From Gammaproteobacteria bacterium (GTDB taxonomy: Bacteria > Pseudomonadota > Gammaproteobacteria > UBA4575), in contig CBDEUS010000001.1 in NCBI GenBank assembly GCA_965243395.1, positions 576,001-640,000 on the forward strand: a stretch of DNA of 64,000 nt, written 5' to 3'. The position numbers and the translations under genes were made by a program. The notes under the pieces were generated by a model. The model did not search any database, was not told the origin of the DNA, and worked only from the letters and a program-made list of their open reading frames with translations. Below, one piece after another: positions 29,444-44,426 of the stretch; positions within the stretch are counted from its first letter, which is position 1; the number at the start of each line of letters is the position of its first letter.

Positions 29444-30649
29444 TTAAAACTCTACCGCCAATTGAGAAGTGATCGTGTTGCCACCGAATTCATCGGTACC
29501 GCCTTCCGAGGCGCTGTAATCCTCATCATGGGCCCATTCGATCGACAGTGCGGTTGCATCAAAAATCTCAGCTGATAAGCCACCGATTATACGTTCCTTC
29601 GGAAGCTCCAGTGCCACGGCTTCATCCGTACCCTGATAAGCCAGGGCTGCAGTCATCGGAATACCGCCTACATTAAAGCTATAGCCAACCTCAAAGTTAA
29701 ATGCTTCAGGTTCAGCACCGCCCGACTCAAATGCAAGCTCATCGGCCTCAAAGTCATCCGTGGCTTGGATGTATTCTGCAATCACATTGAAAGGTCCATA
29801 ACTGTACATAGCATCTATAGAAATGCCGCCTACATAATCACTATAGTCGACGGCTGCTGCATCAATATTATCCTGAATCACCTCTTGCAAAGTATCCGAA
29901 TCACCAATGTCATTGATGTACCCTAAGTTAATCGCAAAGTTTGAACCACTTTCACTCTCATGTGCATACCCAGCAAAGACCCCGAAGTTATCGATATCAC
30001 TATCGCCATCTTCAGACAGATCACCATTAAACACATATACACCACCTGTAAAACCATTGGACTCGATGCCGGCCAAGATAGAAGACTCGCGCGTCTCGGC
30101 AATCTCAAGCGTGAGAGGATCGGAGATAAGATTTGTTTCAAACGTGCCAAAGGGTTCATACATCAAACCGCTTTGTATAAACCAAGCACCCTCTGGAGGA
30201 GCGATGGTAATAACCGCGACATCAACTTCTAAATCGGTGTCATCTTCTTCAAACAATAGAGTGGTTTCTGCCGACACCCAATCATTTACTTGGGCTGCCA
30301 CCCCAAGTTCTGCTGTCGCTAATACAATATCACTGTTGCTATCGCCTTCATCGGGATCATTGTGAGAAGCTTCGACTTCCATTAGCCCACTAATTTCAAT
30401 ATTGCTAAACCAACCGGAATCCTTTTCATCAGATTTCACATTGGATACCAGTTCATTTATTTGTTGGGATTTTGCTTCAATAACTTGATTCTGTCTTTCA
30501 ATTACTGTGCTTTGTTGTAGAACCATGCGTTCAAGCTGTTCAAGACGGGCCTTTATTGCAGAAAGCTCATCCTCAATGCTCCCCGCAAAAGAAGGACTGC
30601 ATAAAATTGATATCAAAAATACAGATAGACAATTAAAAATTAATCTCAT
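29444..30649 (-). CDS. Outer-membrane porin, LbtU-like
   Basis: Signal peptide, N-terminal coiled coil, SGLMEVEA, PFG.FET..ISDPLTLE..ETRE and C-terminal QLAVEF. SD GAGGAGG. Confidence 0.75.
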   Translation of the reverse strand: MRLIFNCLSVFLISILCSPSFAGSIEDELSAIKARLEQLERMVLQQSTVIERQNQVIEAKSQQINELVSNVKSDEKDSGWFSNIEISGLMEVEASHNDPDEGDSNSDIVLATAELGVAAQVNDWVSAETTLLFEEDDTDLEVDVAVITIAPPEGAWFIQSGLMYEPFGTFETNLISDPLTLEIAETRESSILAGIESNGFTGGVYVFNGDLSEDGDSDIDNFGVFAGYAHESESGSNFAINLGYINDIGDSDTLQEVIQDNIDAAAVDYSDYVGGISIDAMYSYGPFNVIAEYIQATDDFEADELAFESGGAEPEAFNFEVGYSFNVGGIPMTAALAYQGTDEAVALELPKERIIGGLSAEIFDATALSIEWAHDEDYSASEGGTDEFGGNTITSQLAVEF

Positions 30650-30770
30650 AGAGTTCCTCCTCTTCTTATCATTTTTTTTAACTCTAATTTTTTTATAGAC
30701 AATAAAGCCCGTAGGTGATCGAAAGTACGATCACCTTGAGTATTTGTTTGCAGTAGTAAATTAAGTTACT

Positions 30771-31478
30771 TTAATTAGCAGTAGCACCAACAGAAGAATT
30801 TGCTGTACGTTCTGCAAAGCGATTAAAAAATAGTGCGCTCAAAGCTCCTAAAATTATCCAAAACAACGCATTTGTGGCTAATGTGGCTATATGAAAATTT
30901 GTTCTTAGTTCTTGCGGAGCTAATCCTTCATGCACTTCGGGTTGTGGTGCACCAAAAATATGTGGCAACGCAATTAACGCAATACCAAAAAGCTTTAAAA
31001 AAGGTTTAGGTTGAAACGCAAGTATCCATAATCCTGCTGCAGTTAAAATTACGGTCAAAACCCACCAGACTTGGCGCTGCTCTAACCCCGCAGCAGCATC
31101 TCCAGGAAGCTCTGGTGGTAGCCCAAAAGAAGGCGCTAGATTAAACACGAGCCATCCTGCAATGCCCCATAGAATTCCTTTTTGCCAAGTTATCGAACCG
31201 CGTAATGTGTATCCAACTACTAATAAAAGAGCAAAGCCAATTCCTATAACAACACTGCTAGATGCTGTAAAAAAGGTACGTTCAGCACCATCATCTGGTG
31301 CCCAAGCTTCTGCTTCTTCTTCACCATGTCCTGCGGCTGGCTCTTCTTCAGATACCTCGTAAGTTTCTGCTTCGAAAATCATCGGCACAACGCTGAAATG
31401 TTGAATGCCCGCAAGCACTAATCCAGCAATGACTCCAGAAAACAAAGCGCTTAAAAAAATTTGATTAAATAATTTCAT
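30771..31478 (-). CDS. cbtA: Cobalt transporter subunit CbtA
   Basis: P.I..AE.YE, W.P.DG.ER, AP..GLPPELPG, RQ.WW and PHIFGAP motifs. Confidence 0.9.
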   Translation of the reverse strand: MKLFNQIFLSALFSGVIAGLVLAGIQHFSVVPMIFEAETYEVSEEEPAAGHGEEEAEAWAPDDGAERTFFTASSSVVIGIGFALLLVVGYTLRGSITWQKGILWGIAGWLVFNLAPSFGLPPELPGDAAAGLEQRQVWWVLTVILTAAGLWILAFQPKPFLKLFGIALIALPHIFGAPQPEVHEGLAPQELRTNFHIATLATNALFWIILGALSALFFNRFAERTANSSVGATAN

Positions 31479-31502
31479 AATATTTGTGAATTGCTAAATT
31501 GA

Positions 31503-31700
31503 TTAGTGGCATGGAAAAACCATGCTATGGCGGATGTCATGTGCGGCATTATGTATAACTTCAGGGCTTGCAAATCCAATAACTGCAAGTATGAAAATGC
31601 TAACTAAAACAGCTGCAGAAATTGCATAGACAGATGCCCAGGGTAATACATGAGTATGATTCTGTTCAGTTTGACCAATATATTTATTAACAGTAGTCAC
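31503..31700 (-). CDS. cbtB: Cobalt transporter subunit CbtB (copy 1)
   Basis: TM helix plus HNAAHDIRHSMVFPCH. GTG at 31700 with SD GAGGAG. Confidence 0.88.
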   Translation of the reverse strand: MTTVNKYIGQTEQNHTHVLPWASVYAISAAVLVSIFILAVIGFASPEVIHNAAHDIRHSMVFPCH

Positions 31701-31773
31701 AAGTTTTCTCCTCGACTGAAATATTGTTATAAGACTGCACATTAGTAATTTAATGTATGCAGCCTATTTATTT

Positions 31774-31843
31774 GAAAAAGTTTATAGAATGTTATCTATA
31801 ATTCAAGACTATTTAATAACTATTTCAATAGTAATTTTCTATA
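31774..31843 (-). promoter_or_regulatory. Putative CynR-type operator and sigma70 promoter of cbtB-cbtA-porin
   Basis: Minus strand tATAG-aaaatta-CTAT...agtcTTGAAT-N16-TAAACT, with the same operator spacing as the scnB and porin sites. Confidence 0.55.
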
Positions 31844-32014: not shown

Positions 32015-32773
32015 TTACTTTATGAAATGAATTTTAGTCGCAATGATCCTGGAGTTTTTAATTTCCACATAACGGTAAGCTGGAGGAGGGTCAAGTAAAC
32101 ACTGCATTACTTCATTGTTCGTTTTAAATTGATGGCAAGTCGAAGGAGTTGAGATTAGATGAATATTTGATAGTTTTAGATTAATTTCCTGGTGGATGTG
32201 TCCAAACATCACCAAAACATTTTTTTCATGCTGTTTAAGTAATTTCATAAATTCATCTTGATTATGCAAACTTAACTTATCTAGCCATTTGCTATTTACT
32301 TTAATTGGTGGATGATGAATAGCAATAATAAATGTTTGTTTGCTTTTGCTATTTAATATTTTTTCTAGCTGATTCAGATTATATTCACTGATGAAACCAT
32401 GATGCTCATTATCGACACAACTATTTATTAAAACTAGCGTAGTCTCTCCAAAATTGATCATGTTAATAGAATGAGTGGGTGAGTTTGACACACACTTTTG
32501 CAATAGTTGTGGTGAATCATGATTGCCCGGGACACAATAGATTGGCACTTTAATTTCTTGAATAATTGATCTGAATATTGAGTAACTCGCGGCATTTCCT
32601 GTTTGGGAAATATCGCCTGTAACTAAGATAAAACTGATATCTGGATAGGTGCTTGTGCATGCAGATAATACGGATTGCAAGCTATTCTTGGTATTTATCC
32701 CGCGAAACTCGCCATTAGTATCATCTAATAAGTGTGTATCAGTGATCTGAATAAACTTTAAGTTTTCTGGCAT
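32015..32773 (-). CDS. CpdA/Icc-like metallophosphoesterase
   Basis: QITDTHL, TGDISQ, PGNHD, HHPP, FGHIHQ and TPSTCHQF motifs. Confidence 0.85.
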   Translation of the reverse strand: MPENLKFIQITDTHLLDDTNGEFRGINTKNSLQSVLSACTSTYPDISFILVTGDISQTGNAASYSIFRSIIQEIKVPIYCVPGNHDSPQLLQKCVSNSPTHSINMINFGETTLVLINSCVDNEHHGFISEYNLNQLEKILNSKSKQTFIIAIHHPPIKVNSKWLDKLSLHNQDEFMKLLKQHEKNVLVMFGHIHQEINLKLSNIHLISTPSTCHQFKTNNEVMQCLLDPPPAYRYVEIKNSRIIATKIHFIK

Positions 32774-33179: not shown

Positions 33180-33485
33180 TTATTTCCATACGAAAATATA
33201 TTCAGTATTGTCCACACTGGATTTATTAATACCAATTATTATTTCTGCGTCTTGAAGTTTTAGATTTTTGTTTATCGAAGAGCCGTAGAGAAGCTGCCGA
33301 AATTGTTTGTAATCTAAATTCTGATCAATGTAGTTATTTTCTTGTAAATACGAAAACAATTTCGGCAAAGTAAAATGCCATTTATCAAGCTCGAAGCTAA
33401 AGTAAGCGCTTTTTTTTAATTGATTGAGCTCTTTCTCATCTTTTTTTGCCACTCTTTGAAAAAAAGAAGTAAGGATTTTTTCCAT
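33180..33485 (-). CDS. Hypothetical protein downstream of cynS
   Basis: 101-aa ORF starting 18 nt after the cynS stop. Confidence 0.55.
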   Translation of the reverse strand: MEKILTSFFQRVAKKDEKELNQLKKSAYFSFELDKWHFTLPKLFSYLQENNYIDQNLDYKQFRQLLYGSSINKNLKLQDAEIIIGINKSSVDNTEYIFVWK

Positions 33486-33503: not shown

Positions 33504-33947
33504 TTACCAATCTGTATATTTCAGGAATTTTCCATTCAATGTAATTACAACACGATCACCTTTAGGGTTCTCTTCTTTATCAATATCCATCGAAAAATCA
33601 ATTGCACTCATGATGCCATCGCCAAATTTTTCACCAATGATTTCTTTGATAGTTTCTCCATAAACTCCAACGATTTCGTGAAAACGATAAACAACAGGGT
33701 CAGTTGGAATCGCTTTATCCCAAGATTTATAAGGATATTCTTGTAAGCAAGTGCAAACATCTTCTCCAAGGTCTAATGCACTGCATATACTTTTTGCAAC
33801 TTCTTCTGTAGTGCTATTCATTCCAAAACAAGCAGATGTAACCCAGGTAGTACCTTTGCCTACTTTACTCGCTAAATCTTCCCAGGATATTCCTTTAGCT
33901 TTTCTTGCTGCAATAATTTGCTCTTTCATTTGTTCTTTATTCATCAA
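33504..33947 (-). CDS. cynS: Cyanate hydratase (cyanase)
   Basis: PTDPVVYRFHE, EKFGDGIMSAIDF and GDRVVITLNGKFL cyanase signatures. Confidence 0.96.
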   Translation of the reverse strand: MMNKEQMKEQIIAARKAKGISWEDLASKVGKGTTWVTSACFGMNSTTEEVAKSICSALDLGEDVCTCLQEYPYKSWDKAIPTDPVVYRFHEIVGVYGETIKEIIGEKFGDGIMSAIDFSMDIDKEENPKGDRVVITLNGKFLKYTDW

Positions 33948-34162: not shown

Positions 34163-35098
34163 TTAATTTGAAATATCAAATTCATTTTGCAGCATACGTG
34201 CAGTTATATCTGAAGCTATTTCAATAAACGCGCGACTTGAAGGGCTTTTGTATCTGCCTTTATGCCAAATTAAGCTAACTGTTTTATGAGGGATTTCGGG
34301 TATAAGTACGATTGAGTATAAATTAGTGTTTTTACGGATAATTGTTTCTGGAAGTAAAGTAGCAAGCTTACCTAGTTGAACCATTTCAATAATTACACTT
34401 AATGAGTTTGTTTCAACGGATATGCGTGGTTCAATTTGATAAGTTTGGCAATAACGGTCGATATGTCTGCGAAGGGCAAAGTTGCTATTTAATAAAGCAA
34501 GTGACTCATTGCCAAAATCTAATGCACTCATTTCTCCTGAGTTATGACGTGGATGATTCTTGCCGACTGCCAAACATAAAGATTCTTCAAATAAAATATA
34601 ATTTTCGATATCTGTAGATTCATCTTCTTCTAGAGATGGACGTGTAAACGCAATGCCAATATCAATCTTGTCTTCGCCTACAGCTATTTCTAAATCATCT
34701 TGAGACATTTCCAAGGTACTGATTTTTATTCCCGGATGAAGATTGTTGAAATGGGATAGCAATGAGCACGTAAGGTGGTCTGTAATCGGTGTCCAACCTA
34801 AACGCAATGACCCTTTGCTTAAATTTTTTACATCATGAATAGCTCTTGTGCCTGCATCGAGTTCTCCCCACGCACGACGAGCATGGAATAAATACACCTC
34901 ACCCGCATCAGTAAGGCGAACCCCCCTCCCAGTTCGATCTATAAGTGGAGACTCAAGAATCTCTTCTAAATGTTTGATTTGCTGTGAGAGCGTTGGTTGA
35001 GAAACGTGCAACGCATCTGCAGCGCGTGTATAGCTACCTTGTTCAGCAATTGCGATTAGATACTGTAATGAGCGAGGAAAAACATTTCTTTGTTTCAT
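34163..35098 (-). CDS. cynR: LysR-type regulator, CynR-like
   Basis: R.LQY..AIAE.GSYTRAA.ALHVSQPTLSQQI, LTDAGE.Y and G.RAIHDV..LS.GSLR match CynR. Adjacent to cynS. Confidence 0.88.
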   Translation of the reverse strand: MKQRNVFPRSLQYLIAIAEQGSYTRAADALHVSQPTLSQQIKHLEEILESPLIDRTGRGVRLTDAGEVYLFHARRAWGELDAGTRAIHDVKNLSKGSLRLGWTPITDHLTCSLLSHFNNLHPGIKISTLEMSQDDLEIAVGEDKIDIGIAFTRPSLEEDESTDIENYILFEESLCLAVGKNHPRHNSGEMSALDFGNESLALLNSNFALRRHIDRYCQTYQIEPRISVETNSLSVIIEMVQLGKLATLLPETIIRKNTNLYSIVLIPEIPHKTVSLIWHKGRYKSPSSRAFIEIASDITARMLQNEFDISN

Positions 35099-35161
35099 AG
35101 TAATTTCTTATAGGATTTATAACTACAAAGACTTGGACTAATAATATACCACCATTAGACT
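35096..35161 (+). promoter_or_regulatory. Putative CynR operator and sigma70 promoter of the scnBAC operon, overlapping the cynR start codon
   Basis: cATAG-taatttc-TTAT-aggattt-ataactacaaagac-TTGGAC-N17-TAGACT. Confidence 0.65.
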
Positions 35162-35291
35162 TGTCATATAGCTAATCCTATATCCCTTAAGATAAGCATA
35201 TTAGCAAATACTAAAATATAAGGGATTGCTTAGGTTTGAGCGTGGGTTAGTGGAAATAATCGAACTATAAAAAATGAAGGAGTCCGGGATT

Positions 35292-35723
35292 ATGTCAGAA
35301 GCCACACGAAAACGTGTCTTAAATCATCTGGATTATGTAGGTTTATTGCAACCTGCGATTCACACCGAAACACATGCACCGTCACCTGATGAAGTAACGG
35401 ATGATCAATATCGTGCATACACTCGTCCATCACATGATATTGGTGGAGAACGCGATGTTTCAATTCAGTGGGAAGAGAAAGAAGAAGAGATTTGGGAGCA
35501 CAATACATTTGTGACATGTGAAGTGCTGGCATGGCGTGGTGTTTGGAATGCAGAGGAGAGACGTCGTCGTCAAAATGTGGATGTAGGTCAAACTCAATAT
35601 TTGGGACTTCCTTACTACGGCCGCTGGTTACTTACAGCTGCATTAATTTTAGTAGATAAGCAATTTGTTACCCTGACTGAATTACATGAAAAGATTGACG
35701 AGGTTAGTAAGCGCTATGAGTAA
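35292..35723 (+). CDS. scnB: Thiocyanate hydrolase beta subunit
   Basis: RAYTR..HD.GGE, EKEEEIWE.NTF.TCE.LAWRGVW.AEERRR and YYGRWLLTAA.ILVDKQFVTLTELH match Thiobacillus thioparus ScnB as recalled. SD AAGGAG. Confidence 0.93.
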   Translation: MSEATRKRVLNHLDYVGLLQPAIHTETHAPSPDEVTDDQYRAYTRPSHDIGGERDVSIQWEEKEEEIWEHNTFVTCEVLAWRGVWNAEERRRRQNVDVGQTQYLGLPYYGRWLLTAALILVDKQFVTLTELHEKIDEVSKRYE

Positions 35724-36084
35724 GCCACATTATGATTTAGAACATCACGTTAAAAAAGCAACTGGGATTGGAGATCCGCAATGCTTTAAAGGTGAAGCGG
35801 GCGATCCAAGATTTAAAGTTGGGGATAAAGTTAAAATCCGTGATCTACCCGATGTCTTTTACACACGTACACAAGCTTACACGCGAGGTTGCGAGGCTAC
35901 AGTCGTAAGACTCGTTTATGAAACTCCTCCGGCAGAAGATGAAGCTTGGGATAACACTGAAAATGTAGAGTGGATGTACAGTTTACTGTTCAAACAAAAA
36001 GATCTATGGCCCGAGTATGCGGACACATTTTCGCAGGACACTCTAGAAACTGAAATTCCGGAACATTGGTTGGAACCTGCATAG
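35716..36084 (+). CDS. scnA: Thiocyanate hydrolase alpha subunit
   Basis: ATGIGDPQCFKG, DLPD.FYTRT..YTRG and QKDLWPEY.DTF..DTLETEIPE motifs. ATG overlaps the scnB stop. Confidence 0.93.
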   Translation: MSKPHYDLEHHVKKATGIGDPQCFKGEAGDPRFKVGDKVKIRDLPDVFYTRTQAYTRGCEATVVRLVYETPPAEDEAWDNTENVEWMYSLLFKQKDLWPEYADTFSQDTLETEIPEHWLEPA

Positions 36085-36134: not shown

Positions 36135-36830
36135 ATGGCGGATAAACATAAAGCTGCACCAATGGTAGATGAAGTCAGTGAGTTTGAAATCCTTGAAATC
36201 GCGGTTCGCGAACTTGCAATTGAAAAAGGTCTGTTTACTCAGGATGACCATAATGCCTGGACAGACTACATGCATACTTTAAGTCCGATCCCTGCCGCAC
36301 GCTTGGTGGCTAAAGCGTGGCTAGATCCAGAATATAAAAAACTTGCGATTGAGGACGGAGTTAAAGCGAGTTTAGAAGTAGGTATCGATTGGGTTAAGCA
36401 AATGCCTACTCAATTCGGTACTCCAAGTGACTACTGTAATTTACGCGTTATGGCAGACACACCAACCTTAAAACATGTAGTAGTGTGTACTTTATGTTCT
36501 TGCTACCCACGTCCAATTTTAGGTCAGTCACCTGAATGGTATCGCACACCTAATTATCGTAGACGCTTAGTAAGGTGGCCTAGGCAAGTGCTATCAGAAT
36601 TTGGCTTACAAATACCTGATGATGTTGAAGTGCGTGTAGTTGATTCTAATCAGAAAACTCGTTATATCGTTATGCCCGAGCGACCTGAAGGAACGGATGG
36701 TTGGACAGAAGATCAGCTAACTGAAATTGTTACACGCGATTGTTTAATCGGTGTGGCACTACCCAAACCAGGCAAGACTGCTAACGACCCTCGCCCGGTT
36801 CGAAAAGCACTTAAACCTTATGGCCACTAA
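36135..36830 (+). CDS. scnC: Thiocyanate hydrolase gamma subunit (cobalt-binding)
   Basis: Nitrile-hydratase-type Co ligand motif VCTLCSCY, plus APMV.EVS.FEILE, TQFGTPSDYCNLRV and RRRLVRWPRQVL. Confidence 0.95.
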   Translation: MADKHKAAPMVDEVSEFEILEIAVRELAIEKGLFTQDDHNAWTDYMHTLSPIPAARLVAKAWLDPEYKKLAIEDGVKASLEVGIDWVKQMPTQFGTPSDYCNLRVMADTPTLKHVVVCTLCSCYPRPILGQSPEWYRTPNYRRRLVRWPRQVLSEFGLQIPDDVEVRVVDSNQKTRYIVMPERPEGTDGWTEDQLTEIVTRDCLIGVALPKPGKTANDPRPVRKALKPYGH

Positions 36831-37681: not shown

Positions 37682-37846
37682 CTCTCTTATTAATATGTAT
37701 GAAATTAAAAATAAGGAATACATTTTTAACATGGAGGAAATAAGTTGCCTATTTTTCATAATATAAAAGGAAGTTTAATTTCGTTAACAAATGCTGAACA
37801 AAATGCAAAGCATTTTGGAACTACATTTACAGATAAGGAAACAAAC

Positions 37847-38638
37847 ATGGCGGAGCGCAATGGCGTACATATTAAAGTAAAGGATTTAACTCATAGATAT
37901 GATGCAAAAAGCCCACTTACTTTCGACAAAGTAAATGTAGAAGCAGAACCAGGAGAATCAATTGTAATTATTGGGCGTTCTGGTTGTGGTAAATCAACAT
38001 TACTACACATTATCGCGGGATTGCTTGGTGGTTATACTGGAACCAACCAGATAAATAACAAAGATGTTAAAGCTGCATCATCAAAATGGATCATGATGTT
38101 CCAAGCACCACATCTATTTCCTTGGATGACGGTAGAACAAAATGTTGGGACTGGATTACGTTTTGCAGGTTGGTCGAAAGATAGGATTTCTGAACGTGTA
38201 AAAGATGCAATTAGTTTAGTGAATATGGAAGAGTTTGCGCATAAAAATACGCAAGACTTATCAGGTGGACAACAACAACGTGTGGCTTTAGCACGGTCAC
38301 TGGTGATGGAGCCAGAAATGTTGCTATTGGATGAGCCATTTTCAGCTTTGGATGCGTTTACACGTGCTGCCTTGCAAAAAGACGTGCGCGCGATATCAAA
38401 GCAACTTGGATTTAACATTGTCATGGTGACGCATGATATTGATGAAGCTGTAATCATGGCCGATCGAGCGATGATCATGGCAGGTTCGCCGGGGAAAATG
38501 ACGCACGACTTAAAGATAGATCTTCCGGATCCTCGTGATCGTGAAGATCCTGAAGTACAAAAGTTACGAGCACACGTAATGCAAGAGTTTCAGGAAGCTG
38601 CAGGCTCGCCCAAGGGCAGCGAAACAGAGGAGAGTTAA
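37847..38638 (+). CDS. Nitrate/sulfonate/cyanate-type ABC ATP-binding protein
   Basis: GRSGCGKST, LFPW.TV..NV, LSGGQQQR, LLLDEPFSALD and VTHDIDEA. ATG at 37847 with SD AAGGA. Confidence 0.9.
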   Translation: MAERNGVHIKVKDLTHRYDAKSPLTFDKVNVEAEPGESIVIIGRSGCGKSTLLHIIAGLLGGYTGTNQINNKDVKAASSKWIMMFQAPHLFPWMTVEQNVGTGLRFAGWSKDRISERVKDAISLVNMEEFAHKNTQDLSGGQQQRVALARSLVMEPEMLLLDEPFSALDAFTRAALQKDVRAISKQLGFNIVMVTHDIDEAVIMADRAMIMAGSPGKMTHDLKIDLPDPRDREDPEVQKLRAHVMQEFQEAAGSPKGSETEES

Positions 38639-38745: not shown

Positions 38746-40029
38746 ATGAAGAAAATTTATCAAAAACATGGTGAGGGGATTGTTCATGATGATCCTAATC
38801 TCGCCATTGAGTATGACCCTTTGTTTAGAGGTGCTCTAGGCACGGGCTTGAACCGGCGTGAGCTGTTACAAGTGGGTGCTGCATTAGGTACTGCGGGGAT
38901 GTCAATGCCGGCATTTTCCGCAAAGAAAAAGTGGGACCCAGTTATTAAGATTGGTTACATCCCAATTACAGATGCGGCAGCATTATTAATTGCGCATGAT
39001 CAAGGTCTTTTCAAAGCTGAAGGTATTGATTCCAAAAAACCAACACTGATTCGTGGATGGTCGCCTTTAGTAGAAGCTTTTGCTGCACATCGTTTCAACC
39101 TTACCCATATGTTGATCCCAATTCCTGTGTGGATGAGATACAACAATAAATATCCGATTAAAATTACCGCATGGGACCATACAAATGGTTCCGCAATTTT
39201 GGTTGGAAAGAATAGTGGTATTAATGAACCAAAAGATTTTGGTGGTAAGCAATTTGCAGTACCTTACTGGTACTCAATTCATAACATTGTTTCTCAGCGA
39301 ATCATGAAGGCAGCTGGTATCAAACCAGTAATTAAACCTCAATCTGCCAAGCTTGCTGATGACGAATGTAACTTCCTGGTTCTTGCACCACCTTCAATGC
39401 CGCCTGCGCTTGCCGCCGGAACCATTGATGGCTATTGCGTAGCAGAACCTTTTAATGCATTAGGTGAATTAAAAGCGGGTGGTAAAGTCTTGCGCTTCAC
39501 GGGTGATGCATGGAAAGGGCATCCATGTTGTGTTGTGGTAATGCATGAAGACGATGCAATGGATCCAGATCGTGCTGCATGGGCACAAGGCATACATAAT
39601 GCTGTGGTTAAAGCACAAATTATGCTTGCTGAAAATCGTGAATCCATGGCTGAACTGCTCTCTAAGGATGGTAAAGGCTATTTACCAGTACCTAAAGAAG
39701 TTGTGAAGCGAGCAATGATGTTCTACGACCCAGCTTATTACAACAATCCGCTTGCAATTAAGCATCCTGAATGGGATCAAAATCGGATTGATTTCCAAGC
39801 ATGGCCTTATCGTTCAGCAACGGAACTTGTTGTAAATGATTTGAAAGAAACTGTTGTCACAGGTGATGCTAAATTCCTAGACACACTTACTCCACAACAT
39901 GTTGCAGATGACCTAGTCAATTACGACTTTGTTAAAACATCTTTGGAATCAAATCCTAAATGGAGAAACGATAAGAGTGTTCCACAGGAAGGCGACCCCT
40001 ATGTTCGCACGGAGACATTTGTACTTTAA
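38746..40029 (+). CDS. NrtA/CmpA/CynA-family oxyanion-binding protein, Tat-exported
   Basis: NRRELLQ twin-arginine motif, IGYIPITDAA.L, DGYCVAEPFN and W.GHPCC motifs. Confidence 0.85.
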   Translation: MKKIYQKHGEGIVHDDPNLAIEYDPLFRGALGTGLNRRELLQVGAALGTAGMSMPAFSAKKKWDPVIKIGYIPITDAAALLIAHDQGLFKAEGIDSKKPTLIRGWSPLVEAFAAHRFNLTHMLIPIPVWMRYNNKYPIKITAWDHTNGSAILVGKNSGINEPKDFGGKQFAVPYWYSIHNIVSQRIMKAAGIKPVIKPQSAKLADDECNFLVLAPPSMPPALAAGTIDGYCVAEPFNALGELKAGGKVLRFTGDAWKGHPCCVVVMHEDDAMDPDRAAWAQGIHNAVVKAQIMLAENRESMAELLSKDGKGYLPVPKEVVKRAMMFYDPAYYNNPLAIKHPEWDQNRIDFQAWPYRSATELVVNDLKETVVTGDAKFLDTLTPQHVADDLVNYDFVKTSLESNPKWRNDKSVPQEGDPYVRTETFVL

Positions 40030-40869
40030 ATGAGCAATGGAGATGCAAAAACTGAATTGATTGATGCTGGGGCAGGAGGCGTACCCAACCCACAACAATC
40101 ACTAGCTAAATCCTTTGGAACAAGTTTGTTCTACTGGGCGGCTGGCTTATTTATTCTCTTCGTACTCTGGTGGATTGGGGGTTATCTCATTGAGATAAAC
40201 CCCAATACCACAAATTTTAAGGATTTTGGACCCATACCAACGTTCCAAGCCTTTCCAGAGTTATGGGGTGAAGGAAAAATACAAGCTGCAGTCTATACAA
40301 GTGGGTTTCGTCTAGGTGCAGGATTACTGATTGCTATAATTGTTGGAATTCCAATTGGTATTTTACTTGGCAGAAGTAAAGTATTTCGTGATTTAAGTAA
40401 TTCTCCGTTTCAGTTAATTCGTATGATTAGCCCGCTATCTTGGGAGCCAATTGCGGTAATTGTTTTTGCTACCTGGAATGGCGCAATCGTATTCTTAATC
40501 TCAATTGCGGCAGTTTGGCCCATTGTATTTGCCACCGCAGCAGGACTTGCAAAAGTAGATCCTGCTTGGTTTAAAGTCGCAAAAAATCTTGGTGCAAAAC
40601 CGTGGCATATGGTTACTCAAATAATTTTACCTGCTATCATGTTTGACATCTTGACAGGTGTTCGTCTCGCACTTGGTGTGGGATGGATTGTTTTAGTACC
40701 TGCAGAATTTTTAGGGGTGACCTCAGGTTTGGGCTATTCTATTGCAGATGCACGTGAGACTTTATCGTATGACCAGCTAACGGCTATGGTGTTAGTCATA
40801 GGTATCATGGGTTATATATTAGATAGCTCGTGTGCAATGCTTATTAAAAAATATAGTTGGCATCACTAG
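40030..40869 (+). CDS. Nitrate/sulfonate-type ABC permease
   Basis: GIPIGILLG, R.ISPL.W.P, A..LGA, LPA....I.TG.R.ALG.GW..LVPAE motifs. Confidence 0.9.
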   Translation: MSNGDAKTELIDAGAGGVPNPQQSLAKSFGTSLFYWAAGLFILFVLWWIGGYLIEINPNTTNFKDFGPIPTFQAFPELWGEGKIQAAVYTSGFRLGAGLLIAIIVGIPIGILLGRSKVFRDLSNSPFQLIRMISPLSWEPIAVIVFATWNGAIVFLISIAAVWPIVFATAAGLAKVDPAWFKVAKNLGAKPWHMVTQIILPAIMFDILTGVRLALGVGWIVLVPAEFLGVTSGLGYSIADARETLSYDQLTAMVLVIGIMGYILDSSCAMLIKKYSWHH

Positions 40870-40921: not shown

Positions 40922-41116
40922 ATGCAAACTCAAACAACTACACAAAGCACTATACAAGTTGCTTCGCGTACCTCAGCATTATCGAAACCGCTACAAATTG
41001 CTTGTGCAATTTTGCTTGGTTCTGTAATTCTTTATGGTGTAGGGTTTATGAATTCTGCAGCTGTGCACAATGCAGCGCATGATATTCGTCATACGCAAGC
41101 ATTCCCTTGCCACTGA
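40922..41116 (+). CDS. cbtB: Cobalt transporter subunit CbtB (copy 2)
   Basis: TM helix plus HNAAHDIRHTQAFPCH. SD AGGAG. Confidence 0.85.
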   Translation: MQTQTTTQSTIQVASRTSALSKPLQIACAILLGSVILYGVGFMNSAAVHNAAHDIRHTQAFPCH

Positions 41117-41141
41117 TGCGTAATTAGTTAAGTATGTGAGT

Positions 41142-41164: not shown

Positions 41165-41239
41165 TACCTTATTTTATTCTATTGAATGGTAGTAAGCGCT
41201 ACTATAAGTTGAATACTTAACTAAAGTTGGTAACTAAAA

Positions 41240-42217
41240 TTATTCTAAATTTGTCCAGGTAGGGAATTTTTCTGTAAATTCGTTAAGAACTTTTAGATGT
41301 TCTTCAACAAATTGGGCTTGTTGAAATACATCTGCTGCAACCTTATCAGGGAATGATGTGAGCTTATACACTCTTTCTACGCCAATTTGCGAGGCAAAAT
41401 AACGTAATTCAGAGAGTATCAATGAACTTAAATCAAAAACATCTGATGTGTTTATAGGTACTTGTACATCATTGCCTAAATCCAACATGTCTATACCAGA
41501 ATCCTTAGCTATTTCCTGAATGGTGCGGAAATTTCGAAGCATAATATTGTAAGAATCAATTGGCGCGGTGCCCGCTTGATAGGCAGGCAAAGTTGGTGCG
41601 TTTAAACTCCATACAGGAGCAATTTTATCAAGAATATCAACAATATATGCGTTGGCTTGTTCGACAATAGCATAAACATCGCCTTGTTCAATGGGTTGCT
41701 CCAATATTAGATTTAACTGCCGATTAGCCTGAACAATTTGCTTGAATACATCCGTAAGAGATTTTTTAGTGTCTTTAGTGACATTTATTTGTTCTGCTGT
41801 ATCTTCCCTAATACTTAAACCTGCTTTCGCACAACGAATTTGGCTCCATGCATCATTAACAATTTCATAAACGTCTTTTGCAGTTATGTTTTTTGGTATT
41901 GAGTACTGGGCTGCAAGAGGTGGTGCAAAAAGTGATTGAATTGTTTCGTGACAAAGTCTTCCAGCCTTTTGGCGTAAAGTGAGTGCTTGAAAATAGACTT
42001 CTCGAGGATAAACATTTTCAACTGGAATACTTTCTCGAGCATCAATACTGGCTTGCTTATGTTTTCGAATAAGTTCTATTTCATGTTGTACCTGCTCAAC
42101 CATTTGATAGGCGAGAATAGGGCTGAAGTTATTTGTTGCACTTATTCCTTCGCATGGAATAAAAAATAATGTGATGGACAGAATGGCGTAGAATTTGAGA
42201 TTGTTATTGTAAAGCAC
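41240..42217 (-). CDS. Exported hypothetical helical-repeat protein
   Basis: Signal-peptide-like N-terminus and a recurring (P/T/A)xD/E-V-Y/F motif. Confidence 0.65.
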   Translation of the reverse strand: MLYNNNLKFYAILSITLFFIPCEGISATNNFSPILAYQMVEQVQHEIELIRKHKQASIDARESIPVENVYPREVYFQALTLRQKAGRLCHETIQSLFAPPLAAQYSIPKNITAKDVYEIVNDAWSQIRCAKAGLSIREDTAEQINVTKDTKKSLTDVFKQIVQANRQLNLILEQPIEQGDVYAIVEQANAYIVDILDKIAPVWSLNAPTLPAYQAGTAPIDSYNIMLRNFRTIQEIAKDSGIDMLDLGNDVQVPINTSDVFDLSSLILSELRYFASQIGVERVYKLTSFPDKVAADVFQQAQFVEEHLKVLNEFTEKFPTWTNLE

Positions 42218-42613: not shown

Positions 42614-42653
42614 AAAAAAACCAGGACTGTGTTTTAATAACAGTCCTGGTTTT
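42614..42653 (-). terminator. Intrinsic terminator of the porin gene
   Basis: Plus strand AAAAAAACCAGGACTG...CAGTCCTGGTTTT gives a hairpin plus U7 on the minus strand. Confidence 0.8.
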
Positions 42654-42668
42654 ATATTTTTAATTGAC

Positions 42669-44228
42669 TTATTTATATCTGTACTGGAAGAACACCCATA
42701 TCTTTTCAGTGTCTACTCCAAAGTCATCAGCATCATAATCAGCGTACTTGATTGCACCAAGTAAGCCATTTACGCCAAACAAATTAGGTTTACCCCATAA
42801 GAAGTTAATCTCATCACCGTAATCGTCAGGACCAAAATCATCGTCTTCTGCTTCATAGTCATGATATGCAAGGACGATTTTATTTTTACCAATGTAATCG
42901 CCAAAGAGTCCTAAAATTTGTAGGGTGATACTAGTATCCTCAAGACCTCCTACTGGTGTAGCGGAACCGCCAGGAGCTGCAACAAACACATCGGCCCATC
43001 CATTGAAAGCATGCACAGTAGCAAGAGGTGTTTGTACGGCATTTACACCATTGCCTTCTAAGACTTCACGACCCACTCTGATTTGATATGTAGGTTCACC
43101 AACTGGTAAAAATCCAATATTATCGACCCGAGTTCCTCCCCATTGAAGGCCTAATTCGAAGTTGTAGTAGTCGTTATCATCAAAATCTGCAACTTCTGCA
43201 CCGGTAACAGGGCTTTCGCCTGCATCATCAGTTGGATCTTGATTGGCCCATTCAAACTCAGTTTGTAGATCAAACGAATCACCAATTTCATGTCTACCCA
43301 CAAAACGTAACCCTAATGTGTCTGAATCAAATACATTGCCAGTTATAAATGGTGGGGCAATACCATTACCTTCTGGAAAAGGTGTTCTAGGGTTGTCATT
43401 AAAATCAAGTAAATAACCATAGGCAGTTAATTTGCCAAATTCTGGGAATGTGTATGTAAGGTTGATTAAATGGCCGTCATCAAATTTCCATTCGTTAAAG
43501 ATAGAATTCTCGCCGAATAAACGCTTAACTTTCTTAACATATGAGTAGGAAATGCCAAGATTTTTAATAGAGTTGTTATCAAACCTAAATGCATTCATGG
43601 AGACATTGTTATTACGCCATATCACATCCCCCACCCAGCGGTGATTATCGTAAATTATAGTTTGACGTCCTAGTTTAAACGACGTGTTGCCATCACAGAA
43701 TCCGGGAGTATTCGGGCAACTACCTGTACCACTGCGCCAGCCTATATAGGCTTCATTGATTTCACCAAAATCATTATCAGGAATGATGGCATGTCCCTCC
43801 GCATTTCTGTTACCAACGATTGGATTTGGCCCTGGGCCTAGTGGCGGAATCCGGAAATCATCATCAAGATTGAGTGAGTTATCGTTCCAATTCTTTGCAG
43901 CTTCTAATTCCAAACGCCCATAAAAGCCATGATAACGGGCAGTGGTAAATCCGAATTGTATTCTTGTACTGATAAGATCGGCATTTTCTGCACTAGATAA
44001 AACAGTTCCGTCTCGATCTTCATCCACATTTTCCAAACGGGTTCTGATCCAAAAATCTTCATTACCTTCAGTAAACATAGCCCCTAAACTTCCAACTTCA
44101 GGATAAAGTTTATTGTGCGGTGTAAAATGTGCATTGGGGACATCAGGGAAACCTACGGCTCCCACACTTTGTGCCAGTAAGAAAGTAACTACTGCTATGA
44201 GTAGTGAGAGTGGTTTTAAATAGACCAT
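42669..44228 (-). CDS. Alginate-export (AlgE)-like outer-membrane beta-barrel
   Basis: R.R.E.VD, EINEAY, KLGRQ.I..DN.R.VG.V.WR.N, QTPLAT.HAFNGWAD.F and KYADYDAD motifs. ATG at 44228 with SD GGAGGAG. Confidence 0.78.
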   Translation of the reverse strand: MVYLKPLSLLIAVVTFLLAQSVGAVGFPDVPNAHFTPHNKLYPEVGSLGAMFTEGNEDFWIRTRLENVDEDRDGTVLSSAENADLISTRIQFGFTTARYHGFYGRLELEAAKNWNDNSLNLDDDFRIPPLGPGPNPIVGNRNAEGHAIIPDNDFGEINEAYIGWRSGTGSCPNTPGFCDGNTSFKLGRQTIIYDNHRWVGDVIWRNNNVSMNAFRFDNNSIKNLGISYSYVKKVKRLFGENSIFNEWKFDDGHLINLTYTFPEFGKLTAYGYLLDFNDNPRTPFPEGNGIAPPFITGNVFDSDTLGLRFVGRHEIGDSFDLQTEFEWANQDPTDDAGESPVTGAEVADFDDNDYYNFELGLQWGGTRVDNIGFLPVGEPTYQIRVGREVLEGNGVNAVQTPLATVHAFNGWADVFVAAPGGSATPVGGLEDTSITLQILGLFGDYIGKNKIVLAYHDYEAEDDDFGPDDYGDEINFLWGKPNLFGVNGLLGAIKYADYDADDFGVDTEKIWVFFQYRYK

Positions 44229-44359
44229 GGTAGCTTGCTCCTCCCTTGAAAGAATTAGACCGGTCGCGCTAGGTATTCCAGTCACACAACTAAGTTATGC
44301 TTAGTTTTTATATTTCTTATATGCAAATTTTATAGGTTTTTAACACCTACTCACTTAGC

Positions 44360-44426
44360 AATATAAAAGAATGGTCGTTTACCTTCCAAGACTTTGTTGC
44401 TATTGAATCTATAGGTAAATGCTATG
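44360..44426 (-). promoter_or_regulatory. Putative CynR operator and sigma70 promoter of the porin gene
   Basis: Minus strand cATAG-catttac-CTAT-agattca-atagcaacaaagtc-TTGGAA-N18-TATATT. Confidence 0.65.

What the first reader, a model, noticed from the sequence alone, without database searches (positions are those of the whole stretch)
29444..44426. Self-contained thiocyanate/cyanate utilisation regulon built around a cobalt thiocyanate hydrolase
Seen: scnB-scnA-scnC-activator-DsrE-ABC(ATPase, binding protein, permease)-cbtB run in one direction, divergent from cynR-cynS. They are flanked by cbtB-cbtA-LbtU-like porin on one side and an AlgE-like porin on the other. Established: SCNase (Thiobacillus thioparus type, nitrile hydratase superfamily, non-corrin cobalt) converts SCN- to COS + NH3, and cyanase converts OCN- + bicarbonate to NH3 + CO2. 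Inference: this is a full route of outer-membrane entry, high-affinity uptake, cobalt supply, enzyme maturation and catalysis under one LysR regulator. The host looks heterotrophic (glyoxylate shunt, acyl-CoA uptake cluster), so the purpose may be nitrogen scavenging or detoxification rather than lithotrophy. I do not know of a described locus with all these parts together.
Basis: partly seen in the sequence, partly recalled or inferred. Interest (0 to 1): 0.85.

Follow-up and report, generated by a model that had tools for sequence, protein, structure and literature searches.

The report
Thiocyanate and cyanate nitrogen-scavenging gene cluster
An uncultivated low-GC marine gammaproteobacterium carries a complete cobalt thiocyanate hydrolase and cyanase gene cluster with its own transporter and cobalt uptake genes, a layout whose core is already known from sulfur bacteria, so it is a solid but fairly ordinary find.

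Summary
The three enzyme subunits match the crystallised Thiobacillus thioparus thiocyanate hydrolase at E 6e-130, 9e-65 and 2e-57. The cobalt motif VCTLCSC is intact.

The novelty claim does not hold. Berben 2017 (PMC5328954, passages read) already describes scnABC with a hypothetical protein, a NitT/TauT ABC transporter, a DsrE-like protein, a cyanase and a cobalt transporter. In my scan, 10 of 10 proteobacterial loci carry scnBAC, the activator and the ABC genes in the same order, and 9 of 10 carry a CynR homologue.

What differs here, and in two other genomes (L006, L007):
- No DsrE_2-TusA-SQR sulfide module, which 7 of 10 loci have.
- No methyltransferase gene, which 9 of 10 loci have.
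- A different DsrE-family gene.
- A conserved 101-aa protein of unknown function.
- An AlgE-fold porin.

The LbtU porin and the 325-aa ORF are not conserved with the locus. Verdict: a new member, arguably a sub-variant, of a known kind. Interest is modest.

The parts
35274..35723 (+). scnB, the SCNase beta subunit (N-terminal half of a nitrile hydratase beta subunit). The likely true start is the ATG at 35292, which is preceded by GGAG.
   Evidence: PF21006, E 9e-17. Matches PDB 2dd4_B at E 9.2e-65, with query residues 7-147 aligned to chain residues 1-141. Sequence read.
35686..36084 (+). scnA, the SCNase alpha subunit (C-terminal half of a nitrile hydratase beta subunit). The start may be the internal Met at residue 11.
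   Evidence: PF02211, E 1.5e-19. Matches PDB 2dd4_A at E 2.2e-57, query residues 11-132.
36135..36830 (+). scnC, the SCNase gamma (catalytic) subunit, with the cobalt-type motif VCTLCSCYPR.
   Evidence: TIGR03887, 379.9 bits against a cut-off of 291.45. Matches PDB 2dd4_C at E 6.4e-130. Motif seen.
36837..37238 (+). P15K-like activator (metallochaperone) that resembles the beta subunit.
   Evidence: A homologue lies directly after scnC in 36 of 40 SCNase-type loci. Profile-profile match to the ScnB profile: 96.8% probability, E 3e-10 over 78 columns. On its own sequence the match is weak (PF21006, E 0.025).
37319..37681 (+). DsrE-family small protein with a cysteine in FCGACSRARG. Its role is unknown; sulfur handling is possible.
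   Evidence: PF02635, 53.1 bits against 22.7. The TusD equivalog is not reached (21.4 against 89.25). Homologues at 78% identity occupy the same position in L006 and L007 only. No PDB sequence match.
37745..38638 (+). ABC transporter ATPase. The likely start is the internal Met at residue 35.
   Evidence: PF00005, E 6.6e-34. The nitrate, sulfonate and taurine-type ATPase models score below their cut-offs. Found downstream of scnC in 10 of 10 proteobacterial loci.
38746..40029 (+). Periplasmic substrate-binding protein of the NrtA/SsuA/CmpA kind, with a twin-arginine-like leader. Proposed ligand: SCN- and/or OCN-.
   Evidence: PF13379 NMT1_2, 124.6 bits against 24.7. No equivalog model is reached; the best is TIGR01728 at 80.8 against 163.5. 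Distant PDB matches to NrtA, CmpA and NrtC-type domains. 88% identical to L006 and L007.
40030..40869 (+). ABC transporter permease.
   Evidence: PF00528. The NtrB, TauC and SsuC models score below their cut-offs. Found in 9 of 10 proteobacterial loci; L008 ends before this position.
40922..41116 (+). cbtB copy 2, the last gene of the plus-strand run. A terminator-like hairpin lies at 41142-41164.
   Evidence: TIGR02459, 70.4 bits against 64.4. Same position in L001, L005, L006, L007 and L034. Hairpin; note that the terminator count in that region was not above the shuffles.
34163..35098 (-). cynR-type LysR regulator, divergent from scnB.
   Evidence: NF008416 equivalog, 347.5 bits against 277. 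The best PDB match is E. coli CynR, 2hxr, E 4.9e-39. A homologue of 52% identity or more is present in 9 of 10 proteobacterial loci, and directly divergent from scnB in 7.
35099..35273 (.). cynR-scnB intergenic control region, with the inverted repeat TATAGGATT / AATCCTATA.
   Evidence: Inverted repeat I3 is 9 nt and 100% complementary. Long stretches are conserved with L006 and L007 despite 38% against 56% GC. Regulator binding is inferred, not shown.
33504..33947 (-). cynS, cyanase.
   Evidence: NF002773, 203 bits against 150; TIGR00673, 170.7 against 113.3. Matches solved cyanases at E 4e-32, with YRFxE and SAI conserved in the alignment. Present in 6 of 10 proteobacterial loci.
33180..33485 (-). 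Conserved 101-aa protein of unknown function, next to cynS and cynR.
   Evidence: No Pfam or NCBIfam family. Homologues in L001, L005, L006 and L007 share 14 invariant positions. The model is confident (pLDDT 87.7), but no PDB fold match reaches E <= 0.001.
32015..32773 (-). Metallophosphoesterase (CpdA-like, below cut-off). Its link to the system is uncertain.
   Evidence: PF00149, E 2.6e-15. NF008359, 187.7 bits against 225. 51-52% homologues at the same position in L006 and L007 only.
30771..31742 (-). cbtB copy 1 (31503-31742) and cbtA (30771-31478), a putative cobalt importer.
   Evidence: CbtA TIGR02458, 240.5 bits against 182.9. CbtB Pfam, 54.9 against 27. 66% and 43-46% homologues at the same position in L006 and L007. 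No cobalamin riboswitch at gathering score in 28000-46000.
42669..44285 (-). AlgE-fold outer-membrane beta-barrel porin. The likely start is the Met at 44222, which gives a signal peptide. It is a candidate anion channel.
   Evidence: as set out in the observation check. A 58% homologue occupies the same position in L007.
29444..30649 (-). LbtU-family porin, same strand as cbtA and 121 bp after it. Probably not a conserved part of the system.
   Evidence: NF033652, 325.4 bits against 90. No homologue in any of the 80 loci at E <= 1e-5.
41240..42217 (-). 325-aa ORF with a hydrophobic N-terminus and no family. Probably a lineage-specific insertion.
   Evidence: No family found. No homologue in the 80 loci. 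In L007 the porin follows cbtB directly.

Best explanation
This is a chromosomal thiocyanate and cyanate assimilation locus in an uncultivated, low-GC (38%) marine gammaproteobacterium.

The proposed route is as follows.
1. SCN- (and probably OCN-) crosses the inner membrane through an NrtA/SsuA-type ABC importer. It may cross the outer membrane through the AlgE-fold porin.
2. CbtAB brings in Co2+.
3. The P15K-like activator loads cobalt into the gamma subunit.
4. The ScnB/ScnA/ScnC enzyme hydrolyses SCN- to COS and NH3.
5. Cyanase converts OCN- plus bicarbonate to NH3 and CO2.
6. A CynR-type LysR regulator, transcribed divergently, controls expression.

The ammonia is the useful product, so this is nitrogen scavenging.

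Shown here: gene identities, gene order, conservation, and near-identity of the enzyme to the solved SCNase. Inferred: the ligands of the transporter and the porin, the effector of CynR, co-regulation, the physiological purpose, and the fate of COS and sulfide.
For: Enzyme. The three subunits match T. thioparus SCNase chains C, B and A at E 6.4e-130, 9.2e-65 and 2.2e-57. The gamma subunit passes the TIGR03887 equivalog cut-off. The VCTLCSCYPR motif is intact.

Activator. It lies right after scnC in 36 of 40 SCNase-type loci and is beta-subunit-like by hhalign (96.8%, E 3e-10).

Cyanase and CynR. Both pass their equivalog cut-offs and match solved CynS and CynR.

Synteny. Of the 10 proteobacterial loci with ScnC at 71-89% identity, 10 have the ABC ATPase and binding protein after the activator, 9 have a CynR homologue and 6 have CynS. 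A cobalt uptake gene is present in 9 of 10: CbtA in 4 and CbiM in 5.

Assimilatory reading. DsrE_2, TusA, SQR and a 149-aa partner follow the ABC genes in 7 of 10 loci, and a methyltransferase is present in 9 of 10. None gives a tblastn hit at E <= 1e-3 anywhere in the 64-kb window. L007, which shares the window's architecture and extends 6 kb past cbtB, lacks the DsrE_2-TusA-SQR-149-aa module too, although it does carry the methyltransferase.

Vertical inheritance. The locus GC equals the window GC (38.5% against 38.2%). The ScnC and LepA hit lists share contig lengths (46971, 67773, 58160, 2650119). This fits a chromosomal, vertically kept locus in this lineage.

Literature. A 'cyanate/thiocyanate module' expressed as an ammonium source is reported for marine Ca. 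Thiodiazotropha (passages read).
Against: No activity, transport or expression data exist for this organism. The rest of the genome is unseen, so sox, sqr, cbb or a COS hydrolase could lie elsewhere and allow energy use.

No curated model assigns a substrate to the ABC transporter. All equivalog scores are below cut-off.

Cyanate is not an intermediate of the COS pathway, so the co-location of cynS and scnBAC may reflect shared regulation or transport rather than one pathway.

The promoter scan found fewer sites than the shuffles (30 against 54 +/- 6.5), and the terminator count was not above chance (14 against 12.3 +/- 3.5). The operon structure therefore rests on spacing and conservation only.

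The gene trees of ScnC and the binding protein disagree, so the parts have not always travelled together.
Confidence: 0.75

Rival explanations
1. Dissimilatory use. The organism is a sulfur oxidiser or mixotroph that uses SCN- as an electron donor, as Thiobacillus thioparus does. The sulfide-oxidising genes would then simply lie elsewhere in the genome.
For: ScnC and the activator are closest to an Arenicellales MAG locus (L001; 89% and 72% identity; ScnC sister with 98/96 support). That locus carries SQR, TusA and DsrE_2. A DsrE-family gene sits in the window's operon. Only 64 kb of the genome is visible.
Against: No SQR, TusA, DsrE_2 or CCG-type gene gives a hit anywhere in the window at E <= 1e-3, whereas 7 of 10 related loci keep them directly after the ABC genes. 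L007, with the same architecture, also lacks them within 6 kb downstream. The window holds isocitrate lyase, acyl-CoA ligase and Liv-type uptake genes, and no sox or cbb genes.
Confidence: 0.15
2. The ABC transporter, cynR and cynS form a cyanate (cynABD-like) uptake and use system. SCN- is not the transported ligand, and the scn genes merely share the regulator.
For: The regulator is a CynR equivalog and its best PDB match is E. coli CynR. The binding protein belongs to the NrtA/CmpA superfamily. From memory, cyanobacterial CynA belongs to that superfamily too.
Against: The ABC genes follow scnC and the activator on the same strand in 10 of 10 proteobacterial loci, including 4 loci in which no cynS was found within reach. 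This ties the transporter to scn rather than to cynS.
Confidence: 0.2
3. Detoxification. The locus removes toxic SCN- and OCN-, for example from an animal host or from decaying biomass, and nitrogen gain is incidental.
For: The two genomes with the same architecture (L006, L007) are metagenome bins whose habitat I did not establish. High-affinity import of a toxin is unusual, but removal after uptake is known for cyanate in E. coli (recalled).
Against: An ATP-driven importer with a periplasmic binding protein argues for acquisition, not avoidance. No efflux component is in the cluster.
Confidence: 0.1
4. The outer flanks (the LbtU porin, the 325-aa ORF, the metallophosphoesterases and perhaps the AlgE-fold porin) are ordinary neighbours and not parts of the system.
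For: LbtU and the 325-aa ORF have no homologue in any of the 80 loci. The metallophosphoesterase is shared only with L006 and L007, which may simply be kin. Thiodiazotropha has the porin family, but not within 10 kb of scnC in L002.
Against: The porin keeps its position in L007 at 58% identity, while the genes beyond it differ. Its hit list shares five contig lengths with the ScnC list, two of them under 20 kb (8963 and 19965). The 101-aa gene is shared with the more distant L001 and L005.
Confidence: 0.5

Closest known systems
Thiobacillus thioparus THI115 thiocyanate hydrolase (PDB 2dd4) with its activator P15K
   Same: Three subunits in the order beta-alpha-gamma, with a split nitrile hydratase beta subunit and the cobalt motif VCTLCSC. 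The matches are very strong (E 6e-130, 9e-65 and 2e-57). A small beta-like protein lies directly downstream. P15K is known to me only from citations (Kataoka 2006, seen in reference lists).
   Different: The host is a low-GC marine gammaproteobacterium, not a betaproteobacterial sulfur oxidiser. No activity has been measured. I could not compare with the P15K sequence itself, because it is not in the PDB set.
scn loci of T. thioparus DSM 505 and Thioalkalivibrio thiocyanodenitrificans (Berben 2017, PMC5328954, Fig. 3 text)
   Same: scnABC, then a hypothetical protein, then a NitT/TauT ABC transporter and a DsrE/F-like protein, with a cyanase and a cobalt transporter gene nearby. My own loci L001-L005, L009 and L010 show this layout.
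   Different: The window lacks TusA, SQR, the DsrE_2-type protein, the 149-aa partner and the methyltransferase. It has one permease gene, not two. It uses CbtAB where 5 of 10 loci use CbiM. Its PF02635 DsrE sits before the ABC genes. It adds a 101-aa conserved protein and an AlgE-fold porin.
E. coli cynR / cynTSX cyanate operon (recalled)
   Same: A CynR-type LysR regulator (equivalog score passed; PDB 2hxr is the best hit) sits divergent from the genes it presumably controls. Cyanase is present.
   Different: Here cynS lies downstream of cynR on the same strand, and the divergent operon is scn plus the ABC genes. No carbonic anhydrase (cynT) or cynX is in the cluster.
'Cyanate/thiocyanate module' of Ca. 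Thiodiazotropha symbionts (PMC11171427 / bioRxiv 10.1101/2024.04.05.588213)
   Same: A marine gammaproteobacterium that encodes and transcribes cyanase and SCNase as a source of ammonium. L002 is a Thiodiazotropha locus with ScnC 85% identical to the window's.
   Different: L002 carries the sulfide module and CbiM. That host is a sulfur-oxidising symbiont.
Legionella pneumophila Paris/Lorraine 'thiocyanate hydrolase' lpp1219-1221 (PMC3218107, PMC2859405)
   Same: Also annotated as a three-subunit SCNase with a nearby Ni/Co transporter, in a 38%-GC gammaproteobacterium.
   Different: Those papers list the subunits in a different order and report the closest homologues in Rhodococcus and Nocardia. 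In my scan the actinobacterial-type loci carry scnBAC and the activator only, with no ABC genes, CynR or CynS. This holds for L011-L040 with the exception of L034. LepA relatives of the window carry only 'Gammaproteobacteria bacterium' MAG names, none of them Legionella.

Membership tests
Thiocyanate hydrolase (SCNase, T. thioparus type) | Three subunits, in which the nitrile hydratase beta subunit is split into beta (N-terminal half) and alpha (C-terminal half), with gamma homologous to the nitrile hydratase alpha subunit | tested here: met
   PF21006, PF02211 and PF02979 fall on three successive ORFs. Each ORF matches the corresponding 2dd4 chain.
Thiocyanate hydrolase (SCNase, T. thioparus type) | The gamma subunit reaches the curated equivalog score and scores above nitrile hydratase alpha | tested here: met
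   TIGR03887 scores 379.9 against a cut-off of 291.45. TIGR01323 (nitrile hydratase alpha) scores 208.3 against 249.85, so it is not reached.
Thiocyanate hydrolase (SCNase, T. thioparus type) | Non-corrin cobalt centre motif C-T-L-C-S-C followed by Y-P-R | tested here: met
   VVCTLCSCYPRP is present in the ORF and is identical in the alignment to 2dd4_C. The roles of the individual residues are recalled, not tested.
Thiocyanate hydrolase (SCNase, T. thioparus type) | Hydrolysis of SCN- to COS and NH3 | not testable with these tools
   This needs an enzyme assay.
Nitrile hydratase / SCNase activator (P15K-like) | A small protein encoded directly after the catalytic subunit that resembles the beta subunit | tested here: met
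   It starts 6 bp after scnC. Homologues hold this position in 36 of 40 loci. hhalign to the ScnB profile gives 96.8%, E 3e-10. Its own Pfam score is below cut-off (15.1 against 21.5).
Cyanase CynS | Equivalog score, both domains present, and conserved C-terminal catalytic region | tested here: met
   TIGR00673 scores 170.7 against 113.3. PF21291 and PF02560 are both present. The alignment to solved cyanases keeps YRFxE and SAI. Which residues are catalytic is recalled.
CynR (LysR-type cyanate regulator) | Equivalog score and divergent position next to the regulated genes | tested here: met
   NF008416 scores 347.5 against 277. The gene lies 175 bp from scnB on the opposite strand. The effector and the DNA site were not tested.
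CbtAB cobalt transporter | A CbtA and CbtB pair that reaches the curated scores | tested here: met
   CbtA scores 240.5 against 182.9. CbtB copy 2 scores 70.4 against 64.4. CbtB copy 1 passes only the Pfam cut-off. Both models are 'proposed' (hypoth_equivalog), and cobalt transport is not testable here.
NitT/TauT (NrtA/SsuA-type) ABC importer | An NMT1-type binding protein, a permease and an ATPase, with a substrate assigned by an equivalog model | tested here: inconclusive
   The three components are present. No nitrate, sulfonate, taurine or other equivalog model is reached; the best binding-protein score is 80.8 against 163.5. The substrate is therefore open.
T. thioparus-type scn locus (Berben 2017) | A DsrE/F-like protein, TusA and sulfide:quinone oxidoreductase downstream of the ABC genes, plus a methylase upstream | tested here: not met
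   tblastn with the L002 and L007 versions of SQR, TusA, DsrE_2, the 149-aa partner and the methyltransferase found nothing in the window at E <= 1e-3. The same queries found 7-9 of the 10 proteobacterial loci.
Alginate export (AlgE) porin family | A PF13372 domain and an 18-stranded barrel, encoded with alginate biosynthesis genes | tested here: inconclusive
   Its own Pfam score is 14.3 against 25.2. Homologues carry PF13372 and all 30 Atlas neighbours are Alginate_exp. The best fold match is AlgE at E 1.6e-14, TM 0.52, with model pLDDT 75. No alginate genes are nearby, so it shares the fold family but not the function.
LbtU siderophore porin | The NF033652 score, and a link to legiobactin genes | tested here: inconclusive
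   It scores 325.4 against 90. No siderophore synthesis or export genes were seen next to it; its neighbours are cbtA and small ORFs without a family.
DsrE/TusD sulfur relay | The DsrE fold, equivalog-level similarity, and partner subunits (DsrF/H or TusB/C) | tested here: not met
   Pfam PF02635 is passed (53.1 against 22.7), but TusD scores 21.4 against 89.25 and no partner genes are present. It is a lone DsrE-family protein.

The most novel reading that the evidence does not exclude
The window, L006, L007 and many unnamed metagenome contigs may represent a distinct, purely assimilatory type of scn locus. In it the sulfide-oxidation module has been dropped. In its place is a dedicated entry route: an AlgE-fold anion porin for SCN- and OCN-, an ABC importer and CbtAB for cobalt, with a lone DsrE protein and a conserved 101-aa protein of a fold not seen in the PDB as new accessory factors. 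If this is right, thiocyanate is a regular nitrogen source for free-living or host-associated marine heterotrophs. The porin would be the first pseudohalide-selective outer-membrane channel.
Probability: 0.25. Interest if true: 0.55.

Novelty: new member of a known kind. Interest (0 to 1): 0.3.

Why it matters
Thiocyanate degradation has been studied mainly in sulfur-oxidising bacteria from mine and coke wastewater. A well-conserved scn/cyn locus without the sulfide module, in a lineage known only from marine-type MAGs, suggests that SCN- is also harvested for nitrogen in nature. This adds a small term to marine nitrogen and COS budgets. It also offers candidate parts that have no assigned function so far: a transporter ligand, a porin, a DsrE-family protein and a 101-aa protein. 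It does not reveal a new enzyme or a new mechanism.

Tried and rejected
Steps that led nowhere, or readings I rejected:
1. The listing of cluster members, to get source names for the closest ScnC proteins, was not run because the database is switched off. The identity of the organism therefore rests on LepA relatives that carry only 'Gammaproteobacteria bacterium' MAG names and on the nearest ScnC locus being an Arenicellales MAG.
2. I considered a Legionella origin, because of the LbtU family and 38% GC. I rejected it. No Legionella name appears among the 120 LepA hits at 78% identity or more. The L. pneumophila SCNase genes are described as actinobacterial-like.
3. I considered the cultured UBA868/Arenicellales isolates. 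They have 49% GC, and the preprint has no mention of thiocyanate, cyanate or cyanase (term search only).
4. Rfam at gathering score on 28000-46000 found no cobalamin or other riboswitch, only SRP RNA.
5. The promoter and terminator scans were not above the shuffles.
6. The 101-aa protein has no family. Its Atlas neighbours are unnamed clusters. No PDB fold match reaches E <= 0.001, and the weak winged-helix-like hits (TM 0.35-0.41) are not evidence.
7. DsrE has no PDB sequence match at E <= 1.
8. The activator against the PDB gives only E 0.52 to the SCNase beta subunit. The profile comparison was needed.
9. The 325-aa and 201-aa ORFs have no family.
10. I did not run complex prediction, because no open binding claim depends on it.
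It was inferred only from shared contig lengths.
12. Kantor 2015 and Kataoka 2006 were not available to read. I saw them only as citations.

Full report
**What is there.** The span 29444-44285 holds 18 ORFs.

On the plus strand, with gaps of 0-165 bp, lie:
- scnB (35274-35723)
- scnA (35686-36084)
- scnC (36135-36830)
- a 133-aa ORF (36837-37238)
- a DsrE-family ORF (37319-37681)
- an ABC ATPase (37745-38638)
- an NMT1_2 binding protein (38746-40029)
- a permease (40030-40869)
- a 64-aa CbtB (40922-41116), followed by a hairpin plus T-run at 41142-41164

On the minus strand, divergent from scnB across 175 bp, lie:
- a CynR-type regulator (34163-35098)
- cyanase (33504-33947)
- a 101-aa ORF (33180-33485)
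- a metallophosphoesterase (32015-32773)
- CbtB (31503-31742)
- CbtA (30771-31478)
- an LbtU-family porin (29444-30649)

To the right, on the minus strand, are a 325-aa ORF (41240-42217) and a 538-aa ORF (42669-44285). Family scores are given in the observation check. It omits the metallophosphoesterase, the 101-aa ORF and the 325-aa ORF.

**The enzyme.** The three subunits match chains C, B and A of the crystallised Thiobacillus thioparus thiocyanate hydrolase (2dd4) at E 6.4e-130, 9.2e-65 and 2.2e-57, over nearly their whole lengths.
- The gamma subunit passes NCBI's thiocyanate hydrolase equivalog (379.9 against 291.45) and fails the nitrile hydratase alpha equivalog (208.3 against 249.85).
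- The metal motif VCTLCSCYPR is identical to the solved enzyme.
- The alignments suggest later starts than the longest ORFs: Met7 for ScnB, which has GGAG in front, and perhaps Met11 for ScnA.
- In the 50%-identity representative library, the family collapses to very few clusters before nitrile hydratases begin. True SCNases are a tight family.

**The activator.** On its own, the 133-aa protein gives only a sub-threshold hit to the nitrile hydratase beta N-terminal domain (E 0.025) and E 0.52 to the SCNase beta subunit in the PDB.
- A homologue follows scnC in 36 of 40 SCNase-type loci.
- A profile of 22 of these matches a profile of 15 ScnB sequences with 96.8% probability and E 3e-10 over 78 columns.
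- This is what is expected of a P15K-type, beta-like metallochaperone. P15K itself is known to me only from citations.

**Related loci.** A scan of one genome per species with an ScnC alignment kept the best 80 of at least 595 matches.
- 40 loci have ScnC at 58-89% identity. The remaining 40 (50% or less) are nitrile hydratases.
- The window's own genome was not among them. The nearest is an Arenicellales MAG (L001, 89%).
- I ran tblastn with 20 window proteins against all 80 loci.

Among L001-L010 (Proteobacteria, ScnC 71-89%):
- 10 of 10 have the activator, the ABC ATPase and the binding protein directly after scnC.
- 9 of 10 have the permease. L008 ends before that position.
- 9 of 10 have a CynR homologue at 52% identity or more. 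It is directly divergent from scnB in 7. L010 is cut 736 bp upstream.
- 6 of 10 have cyanase.
- 4 of 10 have CbtA, and 5 of 10 have CbiM instead.

Among L011-L040 (mostly Actinomycetota, 58-70%), only scnBAC and the activator are shared. One fragment (L034) has the binding protein and CbtBA. None has a CynR homologue above 27% identity.

**Already described.** Berben 2017 (PMC5328954; passages read) describes the scn loci of T. thioparus DSM 505 and Thioalkalivibrio thiocyanodenitrificans.
- scnABC is followed by a hypothetical protein, four NitT/TauT ABC subunits, a DsrE/F-like protein, TusA and sulfide:quinone oxidoreductase.
- Cyanase, a methylase and a cobalt transporter subunit lie upstream.
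- PMC5458468 refers to a 'conserved operon' from Kantor 2015, which I could not read.
- A 'cyanate/thiocyanate module' transcribed as an ammonium source is reported in Ca. Thiodiazotropha.

My searches for a description of the specific layout below found none. The library lacks most subscription journals.

**Two layouts.** Using genes from L002 and L007 as queries:
- DsrE_2, TusA, an SQR-like flavoprotein and a 149-aa protein follow the ABC genes in 7 of 10 proteobacterial loci (L001-L005, L009, L010). L008 and L006 end too early to tell.
- A Methyltransf_11 gene is present in 9 of 10.
- None of these, nor CbiM or the CCG protein, has a tblastn hit at E <= 1e-3 in the 64-kb window.
- L007 has 6 kb of sequence beyond cbtB and lacks the sulfide module too.

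The window, L006 and L007 instead share one order: cbtA-cbtB-metallophosphoesterase-(one extra ORF in L006 and L007)-101-aa gene-cynS-cynR | scnB-scnA-scnC-activator-DsrE(PF02635)-ATPase-binding protein-permease-cbtB. In L007 the 538-aa porin follows (58% identity).

The cynR-scnB spacer is conserved in long stretches between the window (38% GC) and L006 and L007 (56% GC). It contains a perfect 9-nt inverted repeat.

LbtU and the 325-aa ORF have no counterpart in any locus. I do not count them as parts of the system, although LbtU lies only 121 bp after cbtA on the same strand.

**The porin.**
- Pfam's Alginate_exp is below cut-off on the window protein.
- All 30 nearest Atlas clusters are Alginate_exp (score 0.98).
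- Many of the 120 listed homologues carry PF13372 or are named alginate export family protein.
- A model built on 34 sequences (pLDDT 75.1, pTM 0.79) is a large beta-barrel. Its best PDB matches are AlgE (E 1.6e-14, TM 0.52), followed by OccAB and OprD-type channels.
- No alginate genes are nearby.
- The porin and ScnC hit lists share five contig lengths (378411, 8963, 459811, 138627, 19965). This suggests linkage in other relatives, but it is only an inference from equal lengths.
- That the porin admits SCN- or OCN- is a hypothesis.

**The 101-aa protein.**
- It is conserved in L001, L005, L006 and L007 (24-44% identity, 14 invariant positions).
- It models confidently (pLDDT 87.7).
- It has no family and no PDB fold match at E <= 0.001.
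- It is the least understood conserved part of the locus.

**Host and history.**
- The window is chromosomal. dnaX-ybaB-recR, SRP RNA, orn, nadB, rseB, degP, lepA and folP surround the locus.
- The locus has the GC content of the window (38.5% against 38.2%).
- LepA relatives at 78-100% identity carry only 'Gammaproteobacteria bacterium' MAG names.
- Four contig lengths are shared between the LepA and ScnC lists. This fits the 20-kb spacing seen here and vertical retention in the lineage.
- The window holds isocitrate lyase, an acyl-CoA ligase and Liv-type transporter genes, and no sox or cbb genes. 64 kb cannot settle the host's lifestyle.

The gene trees disagree. For ScnC I used 17 rows (the window and L001-L016) and left out the other loci. 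For the binding protein I used 11 rows (the window and L001-L010).
- ScnC groups the window with L001 (98/96), inside a clade with L002 and L003 (95/95).
- The binding protein groups the window with L006 and L007 (100/99), and the permease agrees at weaker support (84/82).

The enzyme cassette and the transporter cassette therefore have different histories.

**Mechanism and confidence.**
- Shown: the identities, the order, the conservation and the intact catalytic motif.
- Inferred: import of SCN- and OCN- by the ABC system; cobalt supply by CbtAB (no B12 riboswitch precedes it); cobalt insertion by the activator; hydrolysis to COS and NH3; cyanate conversion by CynS; control by CynR; and nitrogen scavenging as the purpose.
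- Open: the fate of COS and sulfide. No COS hydrolase or carbonic anhydrase is in the cluster. The lone DsrE-family protein may handle sulfur, or may not.
- I put about 0.95 on the enzyme assignment and 0.75 on the whole reading.

**Verdict.** This is a correct and careful observation of a known kind of locus, in a new, uncultivated marine lineage. Its accessory layout (no sulfide module, an AlgE-fold porin, a 101-aa protein) is one I did not find described. Interest is modest, at 0.3.

Noticed in passing
window 45463-45559 (+): Bacterial small SRP RNA (RF00169, 63.6 bits against a gathering score of 40), just upstream of dnaX.
   Followed up: no
window 35274-40869, compared with L001, L006 and L007: The gene trees disagree inside the locus. 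ScnC (and, more weakly, the activator) is sister to the Arenicellales MAG L001. The binding protein and the permease are sister to L006 and L007. The enzyme and transporter cassettes have been recombined.
   Followed up: partly
L011, L013-L021, L024-L029 and L031-L033, around position 9100-9950: In many actinobacterial-type loci, the ScnB and ScnA tblastn hits lie in the same frame inside one ORF of about 280 aa. The two halves appear to be fused, as in an ordinary nitrile hydratase beta subunit. High GC can lengthen ORFs, so this needs checking.
   Followed up: partly
window 27696-28574 (+); L009 6897-7778; L004 204-1085: A PhzF-family isomerase gene near the locus has 54% identical homologues inside two betaproteobacterial scn loci. 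In L009 it lies directly beside cynR. I have no functional link to thiocyanate to propose.
   Followed up: no
window 24951-25682 (+); L006 1772-2461; L007 1199-1888: A second metallophosphoesterase, 5 kb to the left of the finding, has 43-44% homologues just upstream of cbtA in L006 and L007. The conserved block may once have begun there. The 25.7-30.6 kb stretch (DUF1820, PhzF, small ORFs, LbtU) may be an insertion.
   Followed up: partly
L001-L009: A Methyltransf_11 gene of about 273 aa accompanies the scn locus in 9 of 10 proteobacterial loci, and is the 'methylase' of Berben 2017. It is absent from the window. Its role is unknown.
   Followed up: partly
window 48240-48902 (-): The RsgA ORF (220 aa) matches only model positions 115-331 of 347. 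The N-terminal part is missing from this ORF, and 566 bp of apparently non-coding DNA follow before orn. Possible causes are a frameshift, an unusual start or a truncated gene.
   Followed up: no
window 5722-10242 (+): A 1506-aa hybrid protein combines a sensor histidine kinase, receiver domains and GGDEF-EAL domains. It sits next to a TonB-dependent receptor and a binding protein.
   Followed up: no
window 50058-52040 (-): The NadB ORF is 660 aa, but the L-aspartate oxidase models match only from residue 116 onwards. The real start is probably later, and an overlapping plus-strand ORF (51887-52462), upstream of the RseB-like gene, was not scanned.
   Followed up: no
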